NCBI GenBank assembly: GCA_963422645.2
Contig: CAXXVO010000007.1
Span: 512,001-576,000 of the forward strand
Length of the DNA stretch: 64,000 nt
DNA from: Alphaproteobacteria bacterium
Lineage (GTDB): Bacteria > Pseudomonadota > Alphaproteobacteria > UBA828
Reading direction: 5' to 3'
Part shown: positions 10,750 through 46,652 of the stretch, in pieces
Layout: every line of letters begins with the position of its first letter
Position numbering within the stretch: the stretch's first letter is position 1
Program-made: the position numbers and the translations under genes
Notes under the pieces: generated by a model
The model's database searches: none
Told to the model about the DNA's origin: nothing
The model's input: the letters and a program-made list of their open reading frames with translations, nothing else

Positions 10750-11070
10750 ATGGCGGGTCCGGGGGGCGAGAAGCGGAAGCGGCGCTGCGTGATGGCGACC
10801 GATGCGGAGTGGTCGCGGATGCGCGGGAAGGCGCAGGAGGAAGGGACGTCGTGCTCGGAATTCATCGTGCGGCGCTGCCTGGCCGACGGGACGCCCGCCG
10901 CGCAGGCGCCCGCCTTGCAGGTGCCTGAGCTGCGCCACATTGCGCGCTCGGTGCTGGCGCTGGGGGATATGGAGCGGCTGCGGTCGATCGGGGAGGGCTC
11001 CGAGGGGGACTGGAACGCGGCGCTCGAGCGGGCCGATCGCTGGCTTGACGGAGAGACCTCTCTGGGGTGA
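10750..11070 (+). CDS. Ribbon-helix-helix (MobC/CopG-like) protein 1
   Basis: KRRCVMATDAEWSRMRGKAQEEGTSCSEFIVRRCL fits the beta-alpha-alpha RHH pattern. Confidence 0.65.
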   Translation: MAGPGGEKRKRRCVMATDAEWSRMRGKAQEEGTSCSEFIVRRCLADGTPAAQAPALQVPELRHIARSVLALGDMERLRSIGEGSEGDWNAALERADRWLDGETSLG

Positions 11071-11083
11071 TCGGTAGGGCGCG

Positions 11084-11413
11084 GTGAGACTCGCGAAGCA
11101 GCGCGGCATCCACTGCACGCCGGAGAAGTGGGAGCGGATCCGGCGGCGCGCCCGGAAGAACAACGAGACGATCTCGCGCTTCGGCGAGCTCTGCTGCCGG
11201 CGCGCGGCGGAAGCGTTGGGCGCGCCACCGTCAGTGCCGCCGGGCCATCCGCTGGCGCTGCCCGAGGACGACCAGCGGCGCCTGCTGGCGCACAGTCTTG
11301 CGGTGCAGCGCAGGACACGTGTTTCGATCCGGGCGCCGGGGGGAGAGCGCGTCGACCTGCCGCTCGACGCGGTGATCCGCTTCCTGCTGCTGTGCGAGGA
11401 GGAGGGCAATTGA
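11084..11413 (+). CDS. Ribbon-helix-helix (MobC/CopG-like) protein 2
   Basis: RGIHCTPEKWERIRRRARKNNETISRFGELCC. Confidence 0.6.
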   Translation: MRLAKQRGIHCTPEKWERIRRRARKNNETISRFGELCCRRAAEALGAPPSVPPGHPLALPEDDQRRLLAHSLAVQRRTRVSIRAPGGERVDLPLDAVIRFLLLCEEEGN

Positions 11414-11862
11414 GCAAGCCGAGAAAGAAGCCGCCCGCGCGCAAGGAGTCGCGCGGGAGGACGTACACGATCTCGTGCACCGACGAGCAGTGGGCGGCGA
11501 TTCAGGACGGAGCGGAGCGGGCCGGCAAGAATGTCTCGACGTGGTTCGTCGAGTGCGCGCTGACCGTGGACCCATGGCCCAGGAAGCACCGCCGGCTGGT
11601 GCTGAACGAGAGGGAGCAGCGCCGCCACGCGCGGGCGGTGGCGGTGAGCGCCCGGAACCTCGGCGCGGACGAGGCGGACGGAGCCGGCGATGTTGGGGCC
11701 GAACTCAGGGCGCTCATGGCCGCGCGGCTGCGCGGGATGGACCGGCGCGGCCGGCGCGAGAACGCGCTGGCGCTGCTGCGCCGGGCGTTCGGCGACGATG
11801 CGGCGCAAACCGTCACCGCGGCGTTCATACCGGACGCGCTGTTGAGCGGCGTGGAAAAGTGA
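11410..11862 (+). CDS. Ribbon-helix-helix (MobC/CopG-like) protein 3, 3' end replaced by an IS21 end
   Basis: TTG start overlaps the previous TGA; TYTISCTDEQWAAIQDGAERAGKNVSTWFVECAL; last codons lie in the IS21 IRL from 11840. Confidence 0.6.
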   Translation: MSKPRKKPPARKESRGRTYTISCTDEQWAAIQDGAERAGKNVSTWFVECALTVDPWPRKHRRLVLNEREQRRHARAVAVSARNLGADEADGAGDVGAELRALMAARLRGMDRRGRRENALALLRRAFGDDAAQTVTAAFIPDALLSGVEK

Positions 11863-12025
11863 CCCCCTATTGGAGATGCCGTAATGGGGCTTGGCGCCGG
11901 CGTGCAGCGTCTCGGCCTGTCGCGATGACGGCGAATCGGTTGTCGTTGCCCTTACACGCGTAGCGTGTTCACGGGGTCTTGCCGCAAGGCGCGCCCCAAT
12001 TCCTCTGGAGGAAAGGGCAACGACA

Positions 12026-13066
12026 ATGGACGTCTGTATCGGGCTGGATGTATCGCTGGCAAGCACGGCGGTTTGCGTTCTCGACGAGAAGGGCAAGATC
12101 GCGACCGAGGCGCAGGTCGCCAGCACGCCTGAAGCGCTGGTTGGGTTCCTGCACAAGCTGCCGCACGAGATCACCGCGATCGGTCTCGAGGCCGGTCCCT
12201 TGTCCCACTGGTTGCACAAGGGAATGACCGACGCCGGCTTCGAGGCCGTGTTGATGGAGACCCGGCAGGTAAAGGGTGCGCTGAAGGCCATGCCGATCAA
12301 GACCGATCGCCGGGACGCCGAGGGCATCGCACGGCTGTTGCTGATGGGGTGGTTTCGGCCGGTGCACTGCAAGTCGGTGTCATCGCAAGAGATGCGAGCC
12401 CTCCTGACCTCGCGCAAGTCCGTGCTGGACGCGATCATCCGCCTGGAGGTCTCGCTGCGCGGCGTCCTGCGTAACTTTGGCCTGAAGCTGGGCCTGATCT
12501 CGAAGGGCCGCTATGAGGCCCGAGTGCGGGAGTTGGTCGCCGGCAACGCGATGCTGGAAGCGGCAGCCGAACCGATCCTGGGCGCGCGGGCGGCCCTGCG
12601 CCGCGAGTTCGCCGAGCTGGAGAAGCTGGTCCGCACTCTGGCAAGGCAAGACAGGGCATGCCGCCTGTTGATGACCATGCCGGGCGTGGGGCATGTCATA
12701 GCCCTGACCTTCAAGTCCGCGATCGACGACCCGGAGCGGTTCCGAAGATCGAAGGATGTCGGCCCCTGGGTAGGGCTGACGCCGGCGCGGGAGCAGTCCG
12801 GGGAGAGGGATATTGTCGGCCGGATCACCAAGGCCGGCGATGCCGGTCTGCGCGCGGCTCTTTACCAAGCCGCAACGGTGATGCTGAACCGCACAGGGCC
12901 GAACTGGCTGAAGGCTTGGGCGCTACGTTTGGCGAAGCACAGGGGCAAGAAGCGCGCGACCGTTGCCTTGGCCCGGCGCATCGGTGTTGTGCTTCACCGA
13001 ATGTGGCGGGATGGAACCGAGTTCCGCTTTACGCGCGAGGAAGCGATGGCGCTTCGGACGGCATAG
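12026..13066 (+). CDS. IS110 family DEDD recombinase/transposase
   Basis: IGLDVS, GLEAG, KTDRRDA, MPGVG, GLTP..QSGE (catalytic Ser), ALARR. ATG at 12026. Confidence 0.95.
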   Translation: MDVCIGLDVSLASTAVCVLDEKGKIATEAQVASTPEALVGFLHKLPHEITAIGLEAGPLSHWLHKGMTDAGFEAVLMETRQVKGALKAMPIKTDRRDAEGIARLLLMGWFRPVHCKSVSSQEMRALLTSRKSVLDAIIRLEVSLRGVLRNFGLKLGLISKGRYEARVRELVAGNAMLEAAAEPILGARAALRREFAELEKLVRTLARQDRACRLLMTMPGVGHVIALTFKSAIDDPERFRRSKDVGPWVGLTPAREQSGERDIVGRITKAGDAGLRAALYQAATVMLNRTGPNWLKAWALRLAKHRGKKRATVALARRIGVVLHRMWRDGTEFRFTREEAMALRTA

Positions 13067-13129
13067 GCGCGGCTGCATCCCATCGGCAGTCAGCGAGGAG
13101 AGGAGGAAAGAGCCGCGCCTGAAGGTGGG

Positions 13130-13330
13130 CGAGCCACCAACGTCCCCTCGCCGGGACGCGGTCCCCGATGATGCACGTGGGCCCACTTGTTTGCCGAACC
13201 GGCCTGTCGTGTTCGAGCACGCTGTGGAGATAGGCACTCGGGAACCGATTTGGACTGGGCATGATGTTGGCAGCCGATGCGCTGACCACGGACAGAAGCG
13301 AGAACCCGGCGAAGGACACAAGACGTTGAG
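13130..13330 (+). ncRNA. Predicted seekRNA/bridge RNA of the IS1111-type element (boundaries approximate)
   Basis: GGGCCCACTT (13179-13188) and TGGAGA (13225-13230) match the target; GGCAT (13258-13262) and ACAGA (13292-13296) match the donor junction. Confidence 0.7.
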
Positions 13331-13534
13331 CAAGCGCGAGATCGATACGGTCGGCCCCATTGCACCTGACACCGGCAACCTCCTCCGCGCCTCACCCGGC
13401 GCCTCATAGCCAGGCCGAAGGAGCCCCTACACCACGCCAGGAAAACAACTGATTGGCGCGACAATGATCTATTGAAAATCGAGCTTGACGGGAAACGCCC
13501 CATTACAGAAGTGGGCCCCTGGGGTCGGACAGTT

Positions 13535-14688
13535 TCATGCGGCGGTTTTGACCGGGGTGCGGGGTTGTTTCTCCTCGAAGCGGTTGGGGCTCAGGTATCC
13601 GAGGGCGGAGTGTAGGCGTCTCTCGTTGTAGCTGTCGATGAAGCGGGGCAGGTGCTCCGCCACGTCTTCCGCGCTCTCGAGGGCCATGGGATAGACGCCC
13701 TCGACCTTCAGGGTCTTCATGAAGCTTTCCATCATGGCGTTGTCGTAGGGGTTGCCGCGCCGGCCCATCGAGCCGACCAGGCCGTGTTCGTCGAGCAGGG
13801 CCCGGTAGGCCTGGGCGGCGTATTGCGAGCCCCTGTCGGAGTGGTGGATGCAGCCGGGTGGCGGGTTGCGGCCCTCGATCGCCGTCGCCAGCGCCGCAAG
13901 GGTTAGCCGGGCATCGATCCGCCGGCCGAGGGCGTAGCCCACGATGCGCCGCGACCACGCATCCATGATCGCCGCCAGATAGACGAAGCCGCCCAGGATC
14001 GCGATGTAGGTCAGATCGGCGACCCAGAGCTGGTTCGGACCATCGACATCGCGCTCCCTGGAGCGGTCCGGGAAGACGGGCTCGTCGTGGTCGCTGTCGG
14101 TGGTGGCGACGAAGCGGCGCCGGCAGGGCGGATGCAGCGCGTGCTCGCGCATCAGGCGCTTGATCTTCTTGTGGTTCACCACCCAGCCGCGATGCCTCAG
14201 CGCCGCCTGCATGCGCCGCCAGCCGTAGGCTTCGAACTCATCCTTGATCGCGTGCATGGCCTCCACCAGCGCGGTGTCGTCTGCCGAGCCCTTGGGCTTG
14301 TCGTAGTAAGTAGAATGCGCGATCCCCATCAGTCGGCATCCTTCGGCGACGGAGAGGCCTTGGGGCCGGTGATGACGGACATGGGCGCGTTTCTCGGCCG
14401 GCGTCCTTGCCGCTGAGCCCCCTTTAGAAACTCGAGCTCCAGGGCCTGCTTGCCGACCAGGCGCTCGAGCGCCGCGATCCGGGCCTCGTATTCCTGGATC
14501 GTGTCGGCCGCCTCGGCGTCCTCGTCGAAGGCGCCGGCCTCGTACTTGTCCACCCAGATCCGGATCAGGGTGCGGGAGAGCTCGTGCCGACGGGCCAGGC
14601 CGTGCAGCGTCTCGCCGGCGAGATACTCCTGAACGACCTGGCGCTTGAACGCGATGCCGTGGGTGCGGTGGGTTCGGTGCTTTGCCAT
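13535..14688 (-). CDS. IS3 family transposase OrfAB (OrfA 14329..14688; OrfB ends 13535; probable -1 frameshift)
   Basis: OrfA HTH; OrfB WVADLTY, HHSDRGSQY, DNAMMESF DDE motifs; slippery-like TTTCTAAAGGGGG on the minus strand at 14418-14430. Confidence 0.92.
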
Positions 14689-14763
14689 GGGCGTCGATCC
14701 TTCGAATGCCCGGTGCACCGGTCAAATAAATTCAAGCCACCTGTCCGGCCCCAGGGGCCCACT

Positions 14764-16396
14764 TCTGTAATGGGGCGTTTCCCGTCAAGCTCGATTTTCA
14801 ATAGATCATTGTCGCGCCAATCAGTTGTTTTCCTGGCGTGGTGTAGGGGCTCCTTCGGCCTGGCTATGAGGCGCCGGGTGAGGCGCGGAGGAGGTTGCCG
14901 GTGTCAGGTGCAATGGGGCCGACCGTATCGATCTCGCGCTTGCTCAACGTCTTGTGTCCTTCGCCGGGTTCTCGCTTCTGTCCGTGGTCAGCGCATCGGC
15001 TGCCAACATCATGCCCAGTCCAAATCGGTTCCCGAGTGCCTATCTCCACAGCGTGCTCGAACACGACAGGCCGGTTCGGCAAACAAGTGGGCCCACGTGC
15101 ATCATCGGGGACCGCGTCCCGGCGAGGGGACGTTGGTGGCTCGCCCACCTTCAGGCGCGGCTCTTTCCTCCTCTCCTCGCTGACTGCCGATGGGATGCAG
15201 CCGCGCCTATGCCGTCCGAAGCGCCATCGCTTCCTCGCGCGTAAAGCGGAACTCGGTTCCATCCCGCCACATTCGGTGAAGCACAACACCGATGCGCCGG
15301 GCCAAGGCAACGGTCGCGCGCTTCTTGCCCCTGTGCTTCGCCAAACGTAGCGCCCAAGCCTTCAGCCAGTTCGGCCCTGTGCGGTTCAGCATCACCGTTG
15401 CGGCTTGGTAAAGAGCCGCGCGCAGACCGGCATCGCCGGCCTTGGTGATCCGGCCGACAATATCCCTCTCCCCGGACTGCTCCCGCGCCGGCGTCAGCCC
15501 TACCCAGGGGCCGACATCCTTCGATCTTCGGAACCGCTCCGGGTCGTCGATCGCGGACTTGAAGGTCAGGGCTATGACATGCCCCACGCCCGGCATGGTC
15601 ATCAACAGGCGGCATGCCCTGTCTTGCCTTGCCAGAGTGCGGACCAGCTTCTCCAGCTCGGCGAACTCGCGGCGCAGGGCCGCCCGCGCGCCCAGGATCG
15701 GTTCGGCTGCCGCTTCCAGCATCGCGTTGCCGGCGACCAACTCCCGCACTCGGGCCTCATAGCGGCCCTTCGAGATCAGGCCCAGCTTCAGGCCAAAGTT
15801 ACGCAGGACGCCGCGCAGCGAGACCTCCAGGCGGATGATCGCGTCCAGCACGGACTTGCGCGAGGTCAGGAGGGCTCGCATCTCTTGCGATGACACCGAC
15901 TTGCAGTGCACCGGCCGAAACCACCCCATCAGCAACAGCCGTGCGATGCCCTCGGCGTCCCGGCGATCGGTCTTGATCGGCATGGCCTTCAGCGCACCCT
16001 TTACCTGCCGGGTCTCCATCAACACGGCCTCGAAGCCGGCGTCGGTCATTCCCTTGTGCAACCAGTGGGACAAGGGACCGGCCTCGAGACCGATCGCGGT
16101 GATCTCGTGCGGCAGCTTGTGCAGGAACCCAACCAGCGCTTCAGGCGTGCTGGCGACCTGCGCCTCGGTCGCGATCTTGCCCTTCTCGTCGAGAACGCAA
16201 ACCGCCGTGCTTGCCAGCGATACATCCAGCCCGATACAGACGTCCATTGTCGTTGCCCTTTCCTCCAGAGGAATTGGGGCGCGCCTTGCGGCAAGACCCC
16301 GTGAACACGCTACGCGTGTAAGGGCAACGACAACCGATTCGCCGTCATCGCGACAGGCCGAGACGCTGCACGCCGGCGCCAAGCCCCATTACGGCA
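14764..16396 (-). mobile_element. IS110 family, IS1111-type element, copy 2 (inverted)
   Basis: Reverse complement of 11877-13509, same length, identical transposase translation. Confidence 0.9.
15207..16247 (-). CDS. IS110 family DEDD recombinase/transposase
   Basis: Identical translation to 12026..13066. Confidence 0.95.
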   Translation of the reverse strand: MDVCIGLDVSLASTAVCVLDEKGKIATEAQVASTPEALVGFLHKLPHEITAIGLEAGPLSHWLHKGMTDAGFEAVLMETRQVKGALKAMPIKTDRRDAEGIARLLLMGWFRPVHCKSVSSQEMRALLTSRKSVLDAIIRLEVSLRGVLRNFGLKLGLISKGRYEARVRELVAGNAMLEAAAEPILGARAALRREFAELEKLVRTLARQDRACRLLMTMPGVGHVIALTFKSAIDDPERFRRSKDVGPWVGLTPAREQSGERDIVGRITKAGDAGLRAALYQAATVMLNRTGPNWLKAWALRLAKHRGKKRATVALARRIGVVLHRMWRDGTEFRFTREEAMALRTA

Positions 16397-16493
16397 TCTC
16401 CATATTGGGGGTGATCGGCGTCCAAAATTGCCCCCCCCTGGATTTGTGTCCATGAACACACCTCGTCGTTTGGACGGACGAGGTGGGGGGGAG

Positions 16494-17402
16494 ATGCTGG
16501 TTGTGGAAACGATCGCGAAGATCCGTCGGGATCGTCTGGTGAAGGGCGTTCCGATCAAGAAGCTCGCCCGGGATTTGAGGGTTTCCAAGAACACGATACG
16601 CAAGGTGGTTCGGGGCGATGCGACCTCGCACAGCTACGCGCGCAAGATCCAGCCGATGCCGAAGCTTGGGCCGTGGGTCGACGAGCTCGAGCGCCAGCTG
16701 GAGGCCAACGAGAAGAAGAAGCGCCGGGATCGCCTGTCCCTGCTGCAGATCCATGAGGACCTTGGCGAGCTGGGCTACAAGGGCGGCTATGATGCGGTCC
16801 GGCGCTACGCCAAGGCGTGGCGGCGCCGGCGCCGTCTGTTATCGCCGTCGCAGGCCTATGTGCCGCTGATCTTCGACCCTGGCGAGGCCTACCAGTTCGA
16901 CTGGAGCCATGAGTACGCGCGTCTGGCGGGTGCGACGACCAAGGTGAAGGCGGCGCACATGCGGCTCTGCCACAGCCGGATGTATCTGGTCCAGATCTTT
17001 CCCCGCGAGAGCCAGGAGATGGTGTTCGAGGCACATGAACGTGCCTTCCGCCTCTTCGGCGGGGTCTGCCGGCGGGGCATCTACGACAACATGAAGACGG
17101 CGGTGAACACGATCTTCGTCGGCAAGAAGCGGGACTACAACCGCCGCTTCCAGGAGATGTGTTCGCACCATCTGATCGAGCCTGTGGCGTGCACGCCAGG
17201 GGCGAGCTGGGAGAAGGGGCAGGTTGAGAAGCAGGTGGGAGACCTTCGTGGGCGTCTGTTCGCGCGCAGCCCGCGGGGCCGCTCCTACGCCGAGATCAAC
17301 GAGTGGCTGATGGATCGGTGCATAGAGGAGGCCAAGAAGCAGCCGCATCCGACGATCCCGGGCAAAACGGCGCGAAGATGGAAACAAAAAGGAGTGGAGT
17401 GA
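16494..17402 (+). pseudogene. istA: Truncated IS21 transposase IstA
   Basis: Nearly identical to 47890..49404 up to HPTIPGKT, then diverges at ~17371. Confidence 0.88.
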
Positions 17403-17757
17403 GTCATGGGATGGGGTGGGTTGCTTTGGTTCCTGATTAAGCGTGATATTACTGGTAGTTGTGGATTGGTGCAAGAGGATTGTGGTGGTGGTGGGCTGAT
17501 GTAAGAGAGGGGAGTCTTGGAGGGGTGAGTTGCATTCTGGGAAGTAAATACGTATGTCTGAGTAGATGGATCTGTCTGAGTGGAGGGCATGCGGTGGATT
17601 TGCGTTTGGATAGAAGCGATAAGGCGCTGAGCTGGAGAGACGTATCGGGATGGGGATGGGTTATTTGCATTATAAGGGGTGGTGCAGGTGATTTTGACAA
17701 GAATGCGGGTCCGGTGAGCTGCGTCAGGCTTGGCTGCAAGGTTCTCGGGGCGCAATC

Positions 17758-18626: not shown

Positions 18627-19444
18627 ATGGACAAGGACGACGCAGGCGCCAGGCGCGAGAAGTGGGCCCGGCTGCGCTTTGCGGTGGTGGGGCCGCTTCT
18701 GGCTTCACCGCCGCCTGCAGGCCAGCTGGGGGCCGAGTTCGAGCGTCTGTCGCAGCGCGACTGGGAGCACCCGTCGGGCAAGGGGCCGGTGCGCTTTGCG
18801 GCCTCGACGATCGAGCGCTGGTACTACCGGGCGCGGGCAGAGGAGCAGGACCCGGTCAAGGCGCTGCGCCGGAAGCCTCGGACCGACGTCGGCCGCGAGC
18901 GGTCCATGTCGGCGGGGCTGATCGCGGCGCTGCGCGAGCAGTACCGGGTCCATCCCTCGTGGGCGGCGCAGCTCCACTACGAGACCCTCAAGGCTCATGT
19001 TGCGACCCATCCCGAGCTCGGCCCGATGCCGTCCTACGCGACGCTGACGCGGGCGATGCGCAATCGCGGCCTGGTGCGCGAGCGCCCCAGGAAGTGGCAC
19101 GAGGGTGAGGACAAGCCGGCGGTCGAAGCCCGCGAGGTCCTTAGCTACGAGGTGTCTCGCAGTCACGCGCTGTGGCACGGGGACTTCCACCACGGCAAGC
19201 GCCGCGTGCTGACGGCGTCGGGCGAATGGCAGACGCCCATCCTGCTCGGCTTCCTCGACGACCACTCCAGGCTTGGCTGCCACCTGCAGTGGTACCTGGA
19301 GGAGACCGCCGAGGTCTTCGTCCACGGGCTCTGTCAGGCCTTCATGAAGAGGGACTTGCCCAGGTCCCTGCTGACCGACAACGGCGGGCCGATGACGGCG
19401 GGCGAGGTCGAGGAGGGCTTGCACCGCCTCGGCATCGTGGGGGC
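18627..19444 (+). pseudogene. Truncated rve/IS481-like DDE integrase
   Basis: LWHGDFH, FLDDHSR, LLTDNG; lacks the NGKIE glutamate region; fused to a CAGAC-IS end. Confidence 0.85.
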
Positions 19445-45173: not shown

Positions 45174-46652
45174 ATGGACAAGGACGACGCAGGCGCCAGG
45201 CGCGAGAAGTGGGCCCGGCTGCGCTTTGCGGTGGTGGGGCCGCTTCTGGCTTCACCGCCGCCTGCAGGCCAGCTGGGGGCCGAGTTCGAGCGTCTGTCGC
45301 AGCGCGACTGGGAGCACCCGTCGGGCAAGGGGCCGGTGCGCTTTGCGGCCTCGACGATCGAGCGCTGGTACTACCGGGCGCGGGCAGAGGAGCAGGACCC
45401 GGTCAAGGCGCTGCGCCGGAAGCCTCGGACCGACGTCGGCCGCGAGCGGTCCATGTCGGCGGGGCTGATCGCGGCGCTGCGCGAGCAGTACCGGGTCCAT
45501 CCCTCGTGGGCGGCGCAGCTCCACTACGAGACCCTCAAGGCTCATGTTGCGACCCATCCCGAGCTCGGCCCGATGCCGTCCTACGCGACGCTGACGCGGG
45601 CGATGCGCAATCGCGGCCTGGTGCGCGAGCGCCCCAGGAAGTGGCACGAGGGTGAGGACAAGCCGGCGGTCGAAGCCCGCGAGGTCCTTAGCTACGAGGT
45701 GTCTCGCAGTCACGCGCTGTGGCACGGGGACTTCCACCACGGCAAGCGCCGCGTGCTGACGGCGTCGGGCGAATGGCAGACGCCCATCCTGCTCGGCTTC
45801 CTCGACGACCACTCCAGGCTTGGCTGCCACCTGCAGTGGTACCTGGAGGAGACCGCCGAGGTCTTCGTCCACGGGCTCTGTCAGGCCTTCATGAAGAGGG
45901 ACTTGCCCAGGTCCCTGCTGACCGACAACGGCGGGCCGATGACGGCGGGCGAGGTCGAGGAGGGCTTGCACCGCCTCATCGGCATCGTGGGGGCCACGAC
46001 ACTCGCTTACAGCCCCCATCAAAATGGAAAAATCGAGTCGTTCTGGGGCACGGTCGAGGGCCGCCTGATGGCTCAGCTCGAAGGCGTCGACGCGCTCACC
46101 CTGAAGATGCTCAACGACGCCACCATAGCCTGGCTGGAGCAGGACTACCATCGGCGGGTGCACCGCGAGCTCGGCATGACGCCGCATGAACGCCTCGCCG
46201 GGAGCGTCAAGGCATCGAGGCCCTGCCCCGCCTCGGACGAGCTCAAGGCGGCCTTCCGCATCGCCAGGAAGCGCACGCTCAGGCGCTCGGACGGCACCGT
46301 CTCGGTCGAGGGCATCCGCTACCAGGTGCCACAGCCGTGGCGCCACCTGAGGACGCTCTGGGTCCGCTATGCGCGCTGGGACCTCAGCGGCGTCGATCTG
46401 GTGGAAGGCCGAAGCGGCGAGCGGCTGTGCACGCTGTACCCCCTCGACAAGCGCGGCAACGCCGATGGCGTCCGCCGTCCTGCGAGACCCGGCAGCGACC
46501 ATGGCGGCGCCAGCGCGGGCGTCGGCGAACTTCCGCCGCTGCTCAAGGGCGTGCTCGACGCCCAGGCCGCAACAGGCCTGCCGCCGGCCTGGGTACCCCA
46601 TAACAAGACGCCCGGTCCGGGCGAGGACGACGATCAGGGAGATCCGTCATGA
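45174..46652 (+). CDS. rve/IS481-like DDE transposase with a Mu-transposase-like C-terminal domain
   Basis: WHGDFH, TDNG, QNGKIESF, DGTVSVEGIRY. Confidence 0.88.
   Translation: MDKDDAGARREKWARLRFAVVGPLLASPPPAGQLGAEFERLSQRDWEHPSGKGPVRFAASTIERWYYRARAEEQDPVKALRRKPRTDVGRERSMSAGLIAALREQYRVHPSWAAQLHYETLKAHVATHPELGPMPSYATLTRAMRNRGLVRERPRKWHEGEDKPAVEAREVLSYEVSRSHALWHGDFHHGKRRVLTASGEWQTPILLGFLDDHSRLGCHLQWYLEETAEVFVHGLCQAFMKRDLPRSLLTDNGGPMTAGEVEEGLHRLIGIVGATTLAYSPHQNGKIESFWGTVEGRLMAQLEGVDALTLKMLNDATIAWLEQDYHRRVHRELGMTPHERLAGSVKASRPCPASDELKAAFRIARKRTLRRSDGTVSVEGIRYQVPQPWRHLRTLWVRYARWDLSGVDLVEGRSGERLCTLYPLDKRGNADGVRRPARPGSDHGGASAGVGELPPLLKGVLDAQAATGLPPAWVPHNKTPGPGEDDDQGDPS

What the first reader, a model, noticed from the sequence alone, without database searches (positions are those of the whole stretch)
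13067..13509. Readable seekRNA/bridge-RNA guides matching the IS3 tip and the element's own junction
Seen, in order in the 3' non-coding region: GGGCCCACTT (13179-13188, exact reverse complement of target AAGTGGGCCC), TGGAGA (13225-13230, the left target half), GGCAT (13258-13262, reverse complement of the element's left end ATGCC) and ACAGA (13292-13296, the element's right end). All four abut or include the AGA core. The TGGAGA match stops exactly at the IS3 tip, beyond which flanking DNA varies. Known: IS110/IS1111 recombinases use an ncRNA with target- and donor-binding loops, located downstream of the gene in the IS1111 group. Inference: a complete programmable recombinase system with an identifiable target. 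The two 5-nt donor matches are weak on their own.
Basis: partly seen in the sequence, partly recalled or inferred. Interest (0 to 1): 0.8.

Follow-up and report, generated by a model that had tools for sequence, protein, structure and literature searches.

The report
IS1111-type bridge RNA targeting IS3 ends
This is an insertion sequence of the IS110/IS1111 kind whose downstream non-coding RNA carries four short guides that match its own ends and the tip of another mobile element's inverted repeat; it is a well-supported new example of a system that is already known.

Summary
All four strings are at the stated coordinates.

**What is there.** A 1636-bp IS1111-group element (window 11874-13509) has a second identical copy, inverted, at 14764-16399. 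The two copies sit in the two inverted-repeat tips of one IS3-family element.

**Target.** Uninterrupted IS3 tips elsewhere in the genome read TGG-AG-TGGGCCC. The shared core is therefore AG, not AGA.

**Guides covary with their DNA in homologues.**
- Across 45 de-duplicated insertions, both target guides track the flanks; 0 of 5000 permutations reach the observed score.
- The pairing shows as a clean per-position diagonal.
- The right-end guide equals the element's right end plus core in 60 of 64 loci, across four variant classes.
- The left-end guide shows compensatory changes.

**Structure.** In a 42-sequence alignment, four helices are 95% paired and 16 pairs carry double changes. All four guides lie in the unpaired strands between these helices.

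**Within the genome.** An 85%-identical sister element has different guides and matching different flanks.

**Verdict.** This is a genuine bridge/seekRNA system and a new member of a known kind. Transcription, RNA ends and activity were not shown.

The parts
11868..11870 (.). TAT, left copy of the 3-bp direct repeat made by the IS3-family element (partner at 16403-16405)
   Evidence: an intact IS3 copy in contig C5 has ATC/ATC
11871..11875 (+). IS3 tip TGG plus core AG: left target plus core at the left junction
11874..13509 (+). IS1111-group element, copy 1 (1636 bp counting one AG core). It has a 7-nt left extension AGATGCC, sub-terminal inverted repeats GTAATGGGGC (11881-11890) and GCCCCATTAC (13497-13506), and a 3-nt right extension AGA.
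12026..13066 (+). Recombinase gene, 346 aa. Pfam PF01548 (DEDD_Tnp_IS110) and PF02371 (Transposase_20). D8, E55, D94, D97 and S258 in GLTPAREQSG.
13149..13311 (+). Predicted bridge RNA (long form, 163 nt), closed by helix P0 (13149-13155 with 13305-13311)
   Evidence: DNA similarity to distant plasmid-borne relatives ends at window ~13300-13320
13158..13248 (+). Target-binding arm. Helix P1 (13158-13174 with 13234-13248), an internal loop, and hairpin P2 (13189-13198 with 13212-13222). At 91 nt it is the candidate short seekRNA.
   Evidence: size compared with the 70-100 nt seekRNAs in PMC11187229
13179..13187 (+). Right target guide GGGCCCACU, the reverse complement of AG+TGGGCCC
13223..13229 (+). 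Left target guide window. In this element only UGGAG (13225-13229) matches: TGG of the IS3 tip plus core AG.
13258..13262 (+). Right donor guide GGCAU, the reverse complement of the element's left end ATGCC; no pairing to the core
13266..13289 (+). Hairpin P3 between the two donor guides
13292..13298 (+). Left donor guide ACAGAAG, the same sequence as the element's right end ACAGA plus core AG
13485..13490 (+). TTGACG, a candidate -35 hexamer of a promoter completed only in the circular form (17-nt spacer, then GAAGAT across the junction)
   Evidence: 35 of 37 distinct right ends carry TTGA(C/T)N. Inference only; the scan of the linear DNA found no promoter.
13510..13518 (+). Core AG plus right target TGGGCCC in the IS3 inverted repeat (right junction)
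13512..14761 (-). Body of the IS3-family element, with orfA (HTH_Tnp_1) and orfB (rve, HTH_21)
14764..16399 (-). IS1111-group element, copy 2, 100% identical and inverted, in the other IS3 inverted repeat. Its bridge RNA is at 14962-15124 (-) and its right target guide at 15086-15094 (-).

Best explanation
Window 11874-13509 is an active-looking IS1111-group (IS110 family) insertion sequence. Its 443-nt region downstream of the recombinase gene encodes a bridge RNA (seekRNA) of about 163 nt (13149-13311).

Target arm. This is helix P1, an internal loop, then hairpin P2. The 5' strand of the loop carries a 9-nt guide, GGGCCCACU, complementary to the top strand of core+right target (AG+TGGGCCC). 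The 3' strand carries UGGAG, identical to the top strand of left target+core (TGG+AG), so it would pair with the bottom strand.

Donor part. Hairpin P3 is flanked by GGCAU, complementary to the element's left end ATGCC, and by ACAGAAG, identical to its right end ACAGA plus core.

Proposed mechanism, inferred from IS621, ISEc11 and relatives:
1. The element excises as a circle whose junction reads ACAGA-AG-ATGCC.
2. The circle junction also completes a promoter.
3. The recombinase-RNA complex holds the circle junction with the donor guides and the 12-bp site TGG-AG-TGGGCCC with the target guides.
4. It recombines at the AG core.

The site is the outermost 12 bp of the inverted repeat of an IS3-family element. 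This is why both ends of one IS3 copy carry an insertion in the same relative orientation.

Shown here: anatomy, covariation of guides with DNA, covariation in helices, and copy identity. Inferred: transcription, RNA ends, the circle and catalysis.
For: Family features:
- Pfam PF01548 and PF02371.
- The C-terminal domain aligns to the IS621 and ISCro4 transposases, with the GLTP....SG serine.
- Sub-terminal inverted repeats, and 7-nt/3-nt terminal extensions once the uninterrupted target is known.
- Long non-coding region downstream of the gene.

Target: 3 of the 4 empty exact sites in the genome are IS3-type tips. There are 4 complete insertions plus 2 with only the left junction, all in one orientation.

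Target guides, over 45 de-duplicated insertions from 64 loci with a usable non-coding region:
- Right guide score 218 against 122.7 +/- 7.4 in permutations.
- Left guide score 150 against 34.8 +/- 6.9.
- 0 of 5000 permutations reach either value, and the same holds with one event per 36 RNA classes.
- Per-position diagonal: 13179-13187 complement target +7..+1, core G and core A in 0.60-0.93 of events, and nothing at +8 (0.09). 13223-13229 equal -5..-1 and the core in 0.53-1.00.

Donor guides:
- 7-nt identity with right end+core in 60 of 64 loci, across the four classes ACGGAAG, ACAGAAG, ACCGAAG and ATGGAAG.
- GGCAU/ATGCC; AGCAU/ATGCT (3 loci); AGUAU/ATACC (3 loci, 4 of 5 pairs).

Structure: 33 pairs, 95.0% paired against 88.6 +/- 0.4 when shuffled and 30-44% when slid by 1-3 columns. 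16 pairs have changes on both sides. Forcing these helices on the window sequence costs 0.7 kcal/mol.

Sister element, 85% identical: guides UUUGAAC and GAUCAG, right-end guide ACGGAAG; flanks GATC-AG-GTTCAAA and right end ACGGA.

Recent activity: 4 full-length copies are 100% identical, a 3'-truncated copy is 100% identical over 1624 bp, and a sixth is 99.9% identical.

The covariance model finds 9 loci in the genome, all inside the 6+3 element copies. It finds matches in 9 of 40 relatives' genomes, a patchy spread as expected of a mobile element.
Against: - No direct evidence of an RNA. The only RNA-library data are assembled contigs of about 90%-identical relatives in two metatranscriptomes, which may contain DNA and cannot show ends.
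- No sigma-70-like promoter or intrinsic terminator was found in the linear element.
- The single-sequence fold is not better than shuffles (z -0.58 and +0.71). Its minimum-energy structure pairs part of the right target guide.
- No Rfam 15 family matches.
- The left-end guide does not pair with the core (GA where CU is expected), unlike the IS621 model, in which all four guides include the core.
- The donor region is not a simple internal loop. It is bounded by hairpin P3 and a P0/P1 junction, and P0 is only 84.7% paired.
- Not all insertions fit. Several loci (for example L001, L003, L008, L019) have a right flank that does not match their guide. 4 of 64 loci disagree at the right-end guide.
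- This element's left guide is only 3 nt plus core.
Confidence: 0.9

Rival explanations
1. Only the target arm is used, as a short seekRNA of about 91 nt (13158-13248). The element's ends would be recognised by the protein through the sub-terminal inverted repeats, and the two donor matches (GGCAU, ACAGAAG) would not act as guides.
For: In ISEc11 the 82-nt short seekRNA alone supported mini-IS movement at 42% (PMC11187229, section read). The IS1111 group has long sub-terminal repeats that the IS110 group lacks. The left-end match here is only 5 nt and skips the core. The donor region has no simple closing helix.
Against: The right-end match follows the element's right end through four variant classes in 60 of 64 loci. 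The left-end match shows compensatory changes: AGCAU with ATGCT, AGUAU with ATACC. Both lie in unpaired strands flanking the conserved hairpin P3. Sequence conservation among distant relatives runs through this part, to window ~13300-13320.
Confidence: 0.08
2. The matches are DNA-level features or chance, for example internal copies of the ends that bind the protein as DNA, or relics of earlier insertions. On this reading they are not parts of a structured RNA.
For: The 5-mers are expected by chance. Single-sequence folding is unremarkable. There is no direct RNA evidence. In some relatives the right end is found joined to internal non-coding sequence next to the right-end guide (L025, L027), so this DNA can itself recombine.
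Against: Helices P1-P3 keep pairing through changes on both sides; 16 pairs do so, and slid controls give 30-44% pairing. That is a signature of RNA structure, not of a DNA site. The guides change with the flanks at fixed register; 0 of 5000 permutations reach the observed score.
Confidence: 0.02

Closest known systems
IS1111-family seekRNA elements ISEc11, ISKpn4, ISPst6 and ISPa11 (Siddiquee et al. 2024, PMC11187229)
   Same: DEDD recombinase of about 340 aa with the GL-P----SG motif. Sub-terminal inverted repeats with 7-nt and 3-nt extensions. Long non-coding region downstream of the gene. The segment complementary to the top strand of the target lies 5' of the segment matching the top strand, and the two overlap at the insertion point. 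Natural re-targeting between close relatives, as with ISEc11 and ISXne4.
   Different: Different target: the tip of an IS3-family inverted repeat. That paper describes target matches only; here donor matches also covary. The recombinase is not close to any named element in the collections I searched. Plasmid relatives are at most about 70% identical in DNA and are annotated only as 'IS110 family transposase'. ISfinder could not be consulted.
IS621 bridge RNA (Durrant et al. 2024, PMC11208160; Hiraizumi et al. 2024, PMC11208158)
   Same: One RNA carries a left and a right guide for the target and a left and a right guide for the donor. Left guides have the sense of the top strand and right guides are its complement. 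There is a 2-nt core shared by donor and target. The recombinase C-terminal domain aligns at E 5e-12.
   Different: The RNA lies 3' of the gene, not 5'. The guide order is reversed (right before left). The core is AG, not CT. The right donor guide does not pair with the core. The base after the right target guide (13188) is not conserved as a handshake position. The donor strands sit at a multi-helix junction rather than in a simple internal loop. Durrant et al. report predicted bridge RNAs in 93.0% of IS1111 elements, so the type is expected.
IS4321/IS5075 (IS1111 family; Partridge and Hall 2003, seen only as cited in PMC11187229 and PMC11208160)
   Same: An IS1111-type element that inserts at a fixed position and orientation in the terminal inverted repeats of another transposable element.
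   Different: Their host is the 38-bp inverted repeat of Tn21-family transposons (title only). Here the host is the outermost 12 bp of an IS3-family inverted repeat.
ISEc21 (IS110 family; PMC11187229)
   Same: Targets IS3-family elements.
   Different: [quoted passage not shown]

Membership tests
IS110 family, IS1111 group | DEDD (RuvC-like) N-terminal domain plus PF02371 C-terminal domain with the conserved serine in GL-P----S(T)G | tested here: met
   PF01548 at 1.5e-16 and PF02371 at 7.4e-24. D8, E55, D94, D97; GLTPAREQSG with S258. The C-terminal domain aligns to IS621 and ISCro4; the N-terminal alignment to them is weak.
IS110 family, IS1111 group | Sub-terminal inverted repeats (7-17 bp) with asymmetric terminal extensions of 7 (or 6) nt on the left and 3 nt on the right | tested here: met
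   GTAATGGGGC and GCCCCATTAC: 10 bp perfect, or 12 bp with one mismatch. The extensions are AGATGCC and AGA once the uninterrupted target TGG-AG-TGGG fixes the ends. Rule taken from PMC11187229.
IS110 family, IS1111 group | The longer non-coding region lies downstream of the recombinase gene | tested here: met
   443 nt downstream (13067-13509) against 152 nt upstream (11874-12025).
IS110 family, IS1111 group | One specific target, one orientation, no target duplication beyond the shared core | tested here: met
   All 6 copies have TGGAG|ATGCC at the left. The 4 complete ones have ACAGA|AGTGGGCCCC at the right. Empty sites read TGGAGTGGGCCC.
IS110 family, IS1111 group | Circular intermediate with abutted ends that creates a promoter | not testable with these tools
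   Sequence hint only: TTGA(C/T)N in 35 of 37 distinct right ends, 17 nt before GAAGAT formed across the junction.
seekRNA (Siddiquee et al. 2024) | [quoted passage not shown] | tested here: met
   13179-13187 (complement of the top strand) precedes 13225-13229 (same as the top strand). Both include the core AG. Order rule.
seekRNA (Siddiquee et al. 2024) | The RNA is made, co-purifies with the recombinase and is needed for movement | not testable with these tools
   Only contigs of relatives from RNA libraries were available. They do not show transcription or RNA ends.
Bridge RNA (Durrant et al. 2024) | The guides covary with target and donor DNA across orthologues | tested here: met
   with the counts given in the For line.
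Bridge RNA (Durrant et al. 2024) | Guides sit in two internal loops bounded by helices | tested here: inconclusive
   The target loop is clearly an internal loop between P1 and P2. The donor guides flank hairpin P3 but are closed only by the P0/P1 junction, and P0 is 84.7% paired.
Bridge RNA (Durrant et al. 2024) | [quoted passage not shown] | tested here: not met
   Met for the right target guide (core G 0.93, core A 0.64), the left target guide (1.00 and 1.00) and the left donor guide. Not met for the right donor guide: GGCAU is followed by GA, AA, AG or CA, never CU. This is a difference in detail from IS621, not from the IS1111 group, for which no such rule was seen in the text read.
Rfam families | Match to a curated covariance model | tested here: not met
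   No relevant match at E up to 10 over 11000-17500. The only matches are two chance-level sR51 hits inside the recombinase gene.

The most novel reading that the evidence does not exclude
The element may be a dedicated parasite of one IS3-family lineage. Its left guide stops exactly at the IS3 tip, so recognition is independent of wherever the IS3 sits. Insertion 5 bp inside each inverted repeat separates the terminal bases from the rest of the repeat, which should immobilise the IS3. If so, the RNA-guided element would act as a natural silencer of another insertion sequence. The two inverted copies flanking the IS3 body might also serve as a substrate for guided inversion or excision of that segment.
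Probability: 0.25. Interest if true: 0.5.

Novelty: new member of a known kind. Interest (0 to 1): 0.35.

Why it matters
It provides a ready-to-test natural RNA-guided recombinase of the less-studied IS1111 group, with all parts located:
- the recombinase gene;
- an RNA of about 163 nt;
- a 12-bp target, TGG-AG-TGGGCCC;
- a donor junction, ACAGA-AG-ATGCC.

It also provides 36 natural RNA variants with their insertion sites. From these the guide rules for this clade can be read: right target guide 7+2 nt, left target guide up to 5+2 nt, left donor guide 5+2 nt, and right donor guide 5 nt without core pairing.

A sister element in the same genome has been re-targeted naturally. The finding adds the tip of an IS3-family inverted repeat to the list of mobile-element sequences that such elements home to. 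None of this changes the known picture of the family.

Tried and rejected
**Wrong turn on the IS3 tip.** I rejected this after finding the 3-bp direct repeats TAT/TAT in the window and ATC/ATC at the intact C5 copy. The IS3 begins at TGG. The conserved flank is a palindromic repeat, GACCCCC-N3-GGGGGTC, in which the IS3 copies sit.

**Steps that did not help:**
- Single-sequence folding was uninformative: z -0.58 for 181 nt and +0.71 for 443 nt.
- The Rfam scan gave no relevant family.
- The promoter/terminator scan of the linear element found none.
- My first anchor-based extraction of guide segments missed many loci. I replaced it with alignment columns.
- My first guide score required the whole core and under-scored loci whose right guide mismatches core A, for example the sister element and L043-L066. 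I re-scored without the core.
- A closing helix GTCC/GGAC for the donor region was considered by eye. I dropped it because TTGAAC variants break it without compensation (alignment).

**A handshake base after the right target guide.** 13188 is T here and would pair with the element's last A. In the alignment, however, that column also reads C or A, and it shows no diagonal signal.

**RNA evidence.** The run search returned 2 RNA-library runs with small shares, 5 runs of unrecorded kind that hold nearly all of it (0.95-0.98 of the words), and 3 guessed-RNA runs with next to none. Laying X1, X2, X8 and X9 gave only contigs of relatives, mostly under 95% alike. One X1 contig spans 12940-13318 and one X2 contig spans 13064-13273. 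These cannot show transcription, strand or ends, and I draw no conclusion from parts without cover.

**Literature.** One search for IS1111 with 'inverted repeat', 'IS3' and 'insertion into' listed 15 of 106 papers, seen as titles and abstracts only. None reported an IS3 inverted-repeat tip as a target. That is not proof that it is unpublished.

**What I read of each paper:**
- PMC11187229: outline, sections 4, 6, 8, 9, 10 and 13, and passages.
- PMC11208160: passages only.
- PMC11208158: passages only.
- All other papers: search listings only.

Supplementary files were not consulted. Durrant et al.'s supplementary tables of predicted bridge RNAs for ISfinder elements may already cover a relative of this element. 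ISfinder itself was not available.
Full report
**1. What is in the sequence.**

They are GGGCCCACTT at 13179-13188, TGGAGA at 13225-13230, GGCAT at 13258-13262 and ACAGA at 13292-13296.

They lie in the 443-nt stretch between the stop codon of a 346-aa gene (12026-13066) and the right end of a repeated element. The element's junctions read TTGG-AG-ATGCCGTAATGGGGC on the left (11870-11890) and GCCCCATTACAGA-AG-TGGGCCCC on the right (13497-13519).

A second, 100% identical copy lies inverted at 14764-16399. Between the two copies is a 1.25-kb IS3-family element with orfA (HTH_Tnp_1) and orfB (rve, HTH_21).

**2. Ends, core and target.**

BLAST of the element against the window's own genome (5.9 Mb, 23 contigs) gives the following:
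- four full-length copies 100% identical, in contigs C8 (two), C11 and C18;
- one copy in C8 that is 100% identical over 1624 bp and truncated at its 3' end;
- one copy in C3 that is 99.9% identical and has an altered right end.

All six have TGGAG|ATGCC at the left. The four complete ones have ACAGA|AGTGGGCCCC at the right.

Uninterrupted IS3 tips elsewhere (C5, both ends; C7, one end) read TGG-AG-TGGGCCCC. The target is therefore TGG|AG|TGGGCCC, and AG is the only sequence shared by target and element ends. It is a 2-nt core, not AGA.

Counting one AG, the element runs from 11874 to 13509 (1636 bp). It has a 7-nt left extension (AGATGCC), 10-bp sub-terminal inverted repeats, and a 3-nt right extension (AGA). 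This is the 7/3 rule given for the IS1111 family in PMC11187229.

The IS3 carries 3-bp direct repeats: TAT/TAT in the window and ATC/ATC at the C5 copy. The IS3 therefore starts at TGG. Positions -4 and -5 differ among the occupied sites.

The exact 12-mer occurs unoccupied 4 times in the genome. Three of those are IS3-type tips.

**3. The protein.**

- Pfam gives DEDD_Tnp_IS110 (PF01548, 1.5e-16) and Transposase_20 (PF02371, 7.4e-24).
- The C-terminal domain aligns to the ISCro4 transposase (9t56, 4.8e-13) and the IS621 transposase (8wt6, 5.4e-12). The alignment includes GLTP....SG.
- The motifs place D8, E55, D94, D97 and S258.
- The N-terminal alignment to the solved proteins is weak.

**4. 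Do the guides follow their DNA in relatives?**

A protein-pattern scan of one genome per species returned 80 loci with recombinases 65-87% identical. In 65 sources (these loci plus the window and sister-element copies) the right end could be located by its conserved motif. 64 of them had a usable non-coding region. After removing duplicates and loci lacking one flank, 45 insertion events remained.

- **Right target guide.** Scored as the longest match between the RNA segment and the reverse complement of the right flank, starting next to the core. The sum is 218, against 122.7 +/- 7.4 when flanks are permuted among loci (maximum 152; 0 of 5000 reach 218).
- **Left target guide.** The sum is 150 against 34.8 +/- 6.9 (maximum 64; 0 of 5000).
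- **One event per RNA class.** With one event for each of the 36 distinct RNA classes the result is the same: 176 against 96.4 +/- 6.2, and 121 against 23.4 +/- 6.1.
- **Position by position.** Window positions 13187 down to 13179 complement core A, core G and target +1 to +7 in 0.64, 0.93, 0.69, 0.60, 0.71, 0.67, 0.62, 0.62 and 0.60 of events. The signal stops at +8 (0.09). Positions 13229 down to 13223 equal core G, core A and target -1 to -5 in 1.00, 1.00, 1.00, 0.91, 0.71, 0.53 and 0.80. The signal stops at -6 (0.20).

In this element only -1 to -3 match. That is exactly the part of the left target that belongs to the IS3.

Misses exist. Several loci, for example L001, L003, L008 and L019, have right flanks that do not fit their guide. 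One clade (L043, L044, L046, L048, L054, L065, L066) has CA where CU would pair with the core, although its non-core guide fits.

**5. Donor guides.**

- The 7 nt ending at 13298 equal the element's right end plus core in 60 of 64 loci, through four classes. ACGGAAG accounts for 42 loci, ACAGAAG for 12, ACCGAAG for 4 and ATGGAAG for 2.
- Four loci disagree: L009, L032, L033 and L054.
- The 5 nt at 13258-13262 are GGCAU where the left end is ATGCC. They are AGCAU in the three loci with ATGCT. They are AGUAU in the three loci with ATACC (4 of 5 pairs). Three loci have a G-U-type wobble (L004, L006, L039).
- After this guide the RNA never reads CU, so it does not pair with the core.

**6. Structure.**

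RNAalifold on 42 distinct sequences (alignment A1) predicts three helices:
- P1 (window 13158-13174 with 13234-13248), which closes an internal loop;
- hairpin P2 (13189-13198 with 13212-13222);
- hairpin P3 (13266-13274 with 13281-13289).

I added an outer helix P0 (13149-13155 with 13305-13311), taken from the single-sequence fold.

Counting all 33 pairs gives the following:
- 95.0% of cells are paired, against 88.6 +/- 0.4 when shuffled (0 of 500 shuffles reach it) and 30-44% with partners slid by 1-3 columns.
- 16 pairs have changes on both sides (94 cells, against 27.2 +/- 4.9).
- Per helix, pairing is 84.7% for P0, 97.0% for P1, 96.9% for P2 and 99.7% for P3.

The structure was partly derived from these same sequences, which favours it in the slid control. 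The double changes in P1, P2 and P3 are the stronger evidence.

Where the guides fall:
- The right target guide lies on the 5' strand of the P1/P2 internal loop and the left target guide on its 3' strand.
- The two donor guides lie on either side of P3.

Enforcing the four helices on the window sequence gives -65.3 kcal/mol, against -66.0 unconstrained. The unconstrained fold pairs part of the right target guide.

**7. A re-targeted sister in the same genome.**

An 85%-identical element is present in three copies plus a fragment (C8:627091, C8:628728, C16:190933; fragment at C5:45721).
- It has UUUGAAC where this one has GGGCCCA.
- It has GAUCAG where this one has UGGAG.
- It has ACGGAAG where this one has ACAGAAG.
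- Its flanks are GATC/GTTC/GACC-AG on the left and AG-GTTCAAA or AG-GTTCC on the right, and its right end is ACGGA.

This parallels the ISEc11/ISXne4 case in PMC11187229.

**8. Extent and distribution.**

- DNA similarity to plasmid-borne relatives (about 67-70% identity) ends at query 1426-1447, that is window ~13300-13320, just after P0.
- A covariance model built from A1 finds 9 loci in the genome. All lie inside the 6+3 element copies, and none is an orphan.
- The model finds matches in 9 of 40 other genomes sampled from the same genus to class (7 of 20 in the same genus), a patchy spread. Some of those genomes supplied sequences used for the model.

**9. Promoter hint.**

35 of 37 distinct right ends carry TTGA(C/T)N at a fixed place. 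In most of them a 17-nt spacer leads to GAAGAT, which is formed only when the ends are abutted. In the integrated state the same position reads GAAGTG here.

This fits the junction promoter described for these families. It is inference only: the scan of the linear DNA found no promoter or terminator.

**10. RNA data.**

No run of the organism's own RNA was found. Two metatranscriptome assemblies hold contigs of about 90%-identical relatives that cover the end of the recombinase gene and the RNA region. One X1 contig spans 12940-13318 and differs at 13179-13182, inside the right target guide. Such contigs can be DNA carry-over and show no ends. I do not count them as evidence of expression.

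**11. Comparison with what is known.**

- **seekRNA.** The anatomy matches the IS1111-family seekRNA description: the non-coding region is downstream, the top-strand complement lies 5' of the bottom-strand match, and the two overlap at the insertion point.
- **Bridge RNA.** It also matches the logic of left guides with top-strand sense, right guides as the complement, and a shared 2-nt core.
- **Differences from IS621.** The guide order, the RNA's position, the core sequence, the lack of core pairing by the right donor guide, and the absence of a conserved handshake base.
- **How expected it is.** Durrant et al. predicted bridge RNAs in 93.0% of IS1111 elements, so finding one here is expected.
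- **Homing to other mobile elements.** IS4321/IS5075 target Tn21-family inverted repeats, and ISEc21 targets IS3-family transposase genes. In the one search I made, I did not find the tip of an IS3-family inverted repeat reported as a target.

**12. Verdict.**

The finding is a well-documented new member of a known kind. Its value is as a fully mapped candidate system with a natural variant series, not as a new principle.

Noticed in passing
window 11940-11953 and 12013-12026: A perfect 14-nt inverted repeat (TTGTCGTTGCCCTT / AAGGGCAACGACAA) in the element's 5' region. Its second arm covers the GGAGGAAAGGG ribosome-binding stretch and runs into the ATG, so it could hide the start site in some transcripts.
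   Followed up: partly
window 11855-11870 and 16403-16420; genome C5:89500-90800, C7:230760: The IS3-family element sits with 3-bp direct repeats in the centre of a palindromic repeat of the form GACCCCC-N3-GGGGGTC. That repeat recurs next to longer repeats (GTCAATCGGCNTTCAATA..., GGGGGTCAATTTTGGACGCCGATC). The IS3 itself therefore seems to be site-selective.
   Followed up: partly
genome G000:C8:627091-630117 (outside the window): Two copies of the 85%-identical sister element lie in tandem. The right end of the first (…CATTACGGA-AG) is joined to position ~56 of the second (CGAATCGG…), so the second copy lacks its left end.
   Followed up: no
genome G000:C3:192710-194339 and C8:417733-419356 (outside the window): Two copies have normal left junctions but abnormal right ends. 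The C8 copy stops at position 1624. The C3 copy reads GCCCCA and then the reverse complement of the flank seen to the left of the C8:417733 copy, which suggests a rearrangement between copies.
   Followed up: no
loci L025, L027, L012: In relatives the element's right end is followed by sequence from inside the non-coding region of the same element type. In L027 that sequence begins right after the right-end guide, whose DNA is identical to right end+core (ACAGAAG). The guide-coding DNA may therefore itself act as a pseudo-end in recombination.
   Followed up: no
window 18661-18669 and 45208-45216: Two copies of another repeated sequence contain GAGAAGTGGGCCC, that is the core and right target but not TGG. 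Both are unoccupied, as expected if both guides are needed.
   Followed up: partly
loci L043, L044, L046, L048, L054, L065, L066: In this clade the right target guide fits the flank (for example AAGCCCG with CGGGCTT) but reads CA where CU would pair with the AG core. Sister loci (L047, L050, L053) read CU. Pairing of this guide with core A therefore seems dispensable.
   Followed up: partly
window 16494-17399 (+) and 11128-11859 (+): Next to the nested elements is another gene with an integrase core domain (rve, 1.8e-09). Upstream is an ORF with a weak NikA-like mobilisation match (23.8 bits, below the cut-off of 27). The neighbourhood looks rich in mobile elements.
   Followed up: no
window 13230-13231: The AU that follows the left target guide is invariant or nearly so in 42 sequences. 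It equals the first two bases of the element's left end, so the guide matches the left junction product TGG-AG-AT. Whether this is a bottom-strand 'handshake' cannot be tested, because neither side varies.
   Followed up: partly
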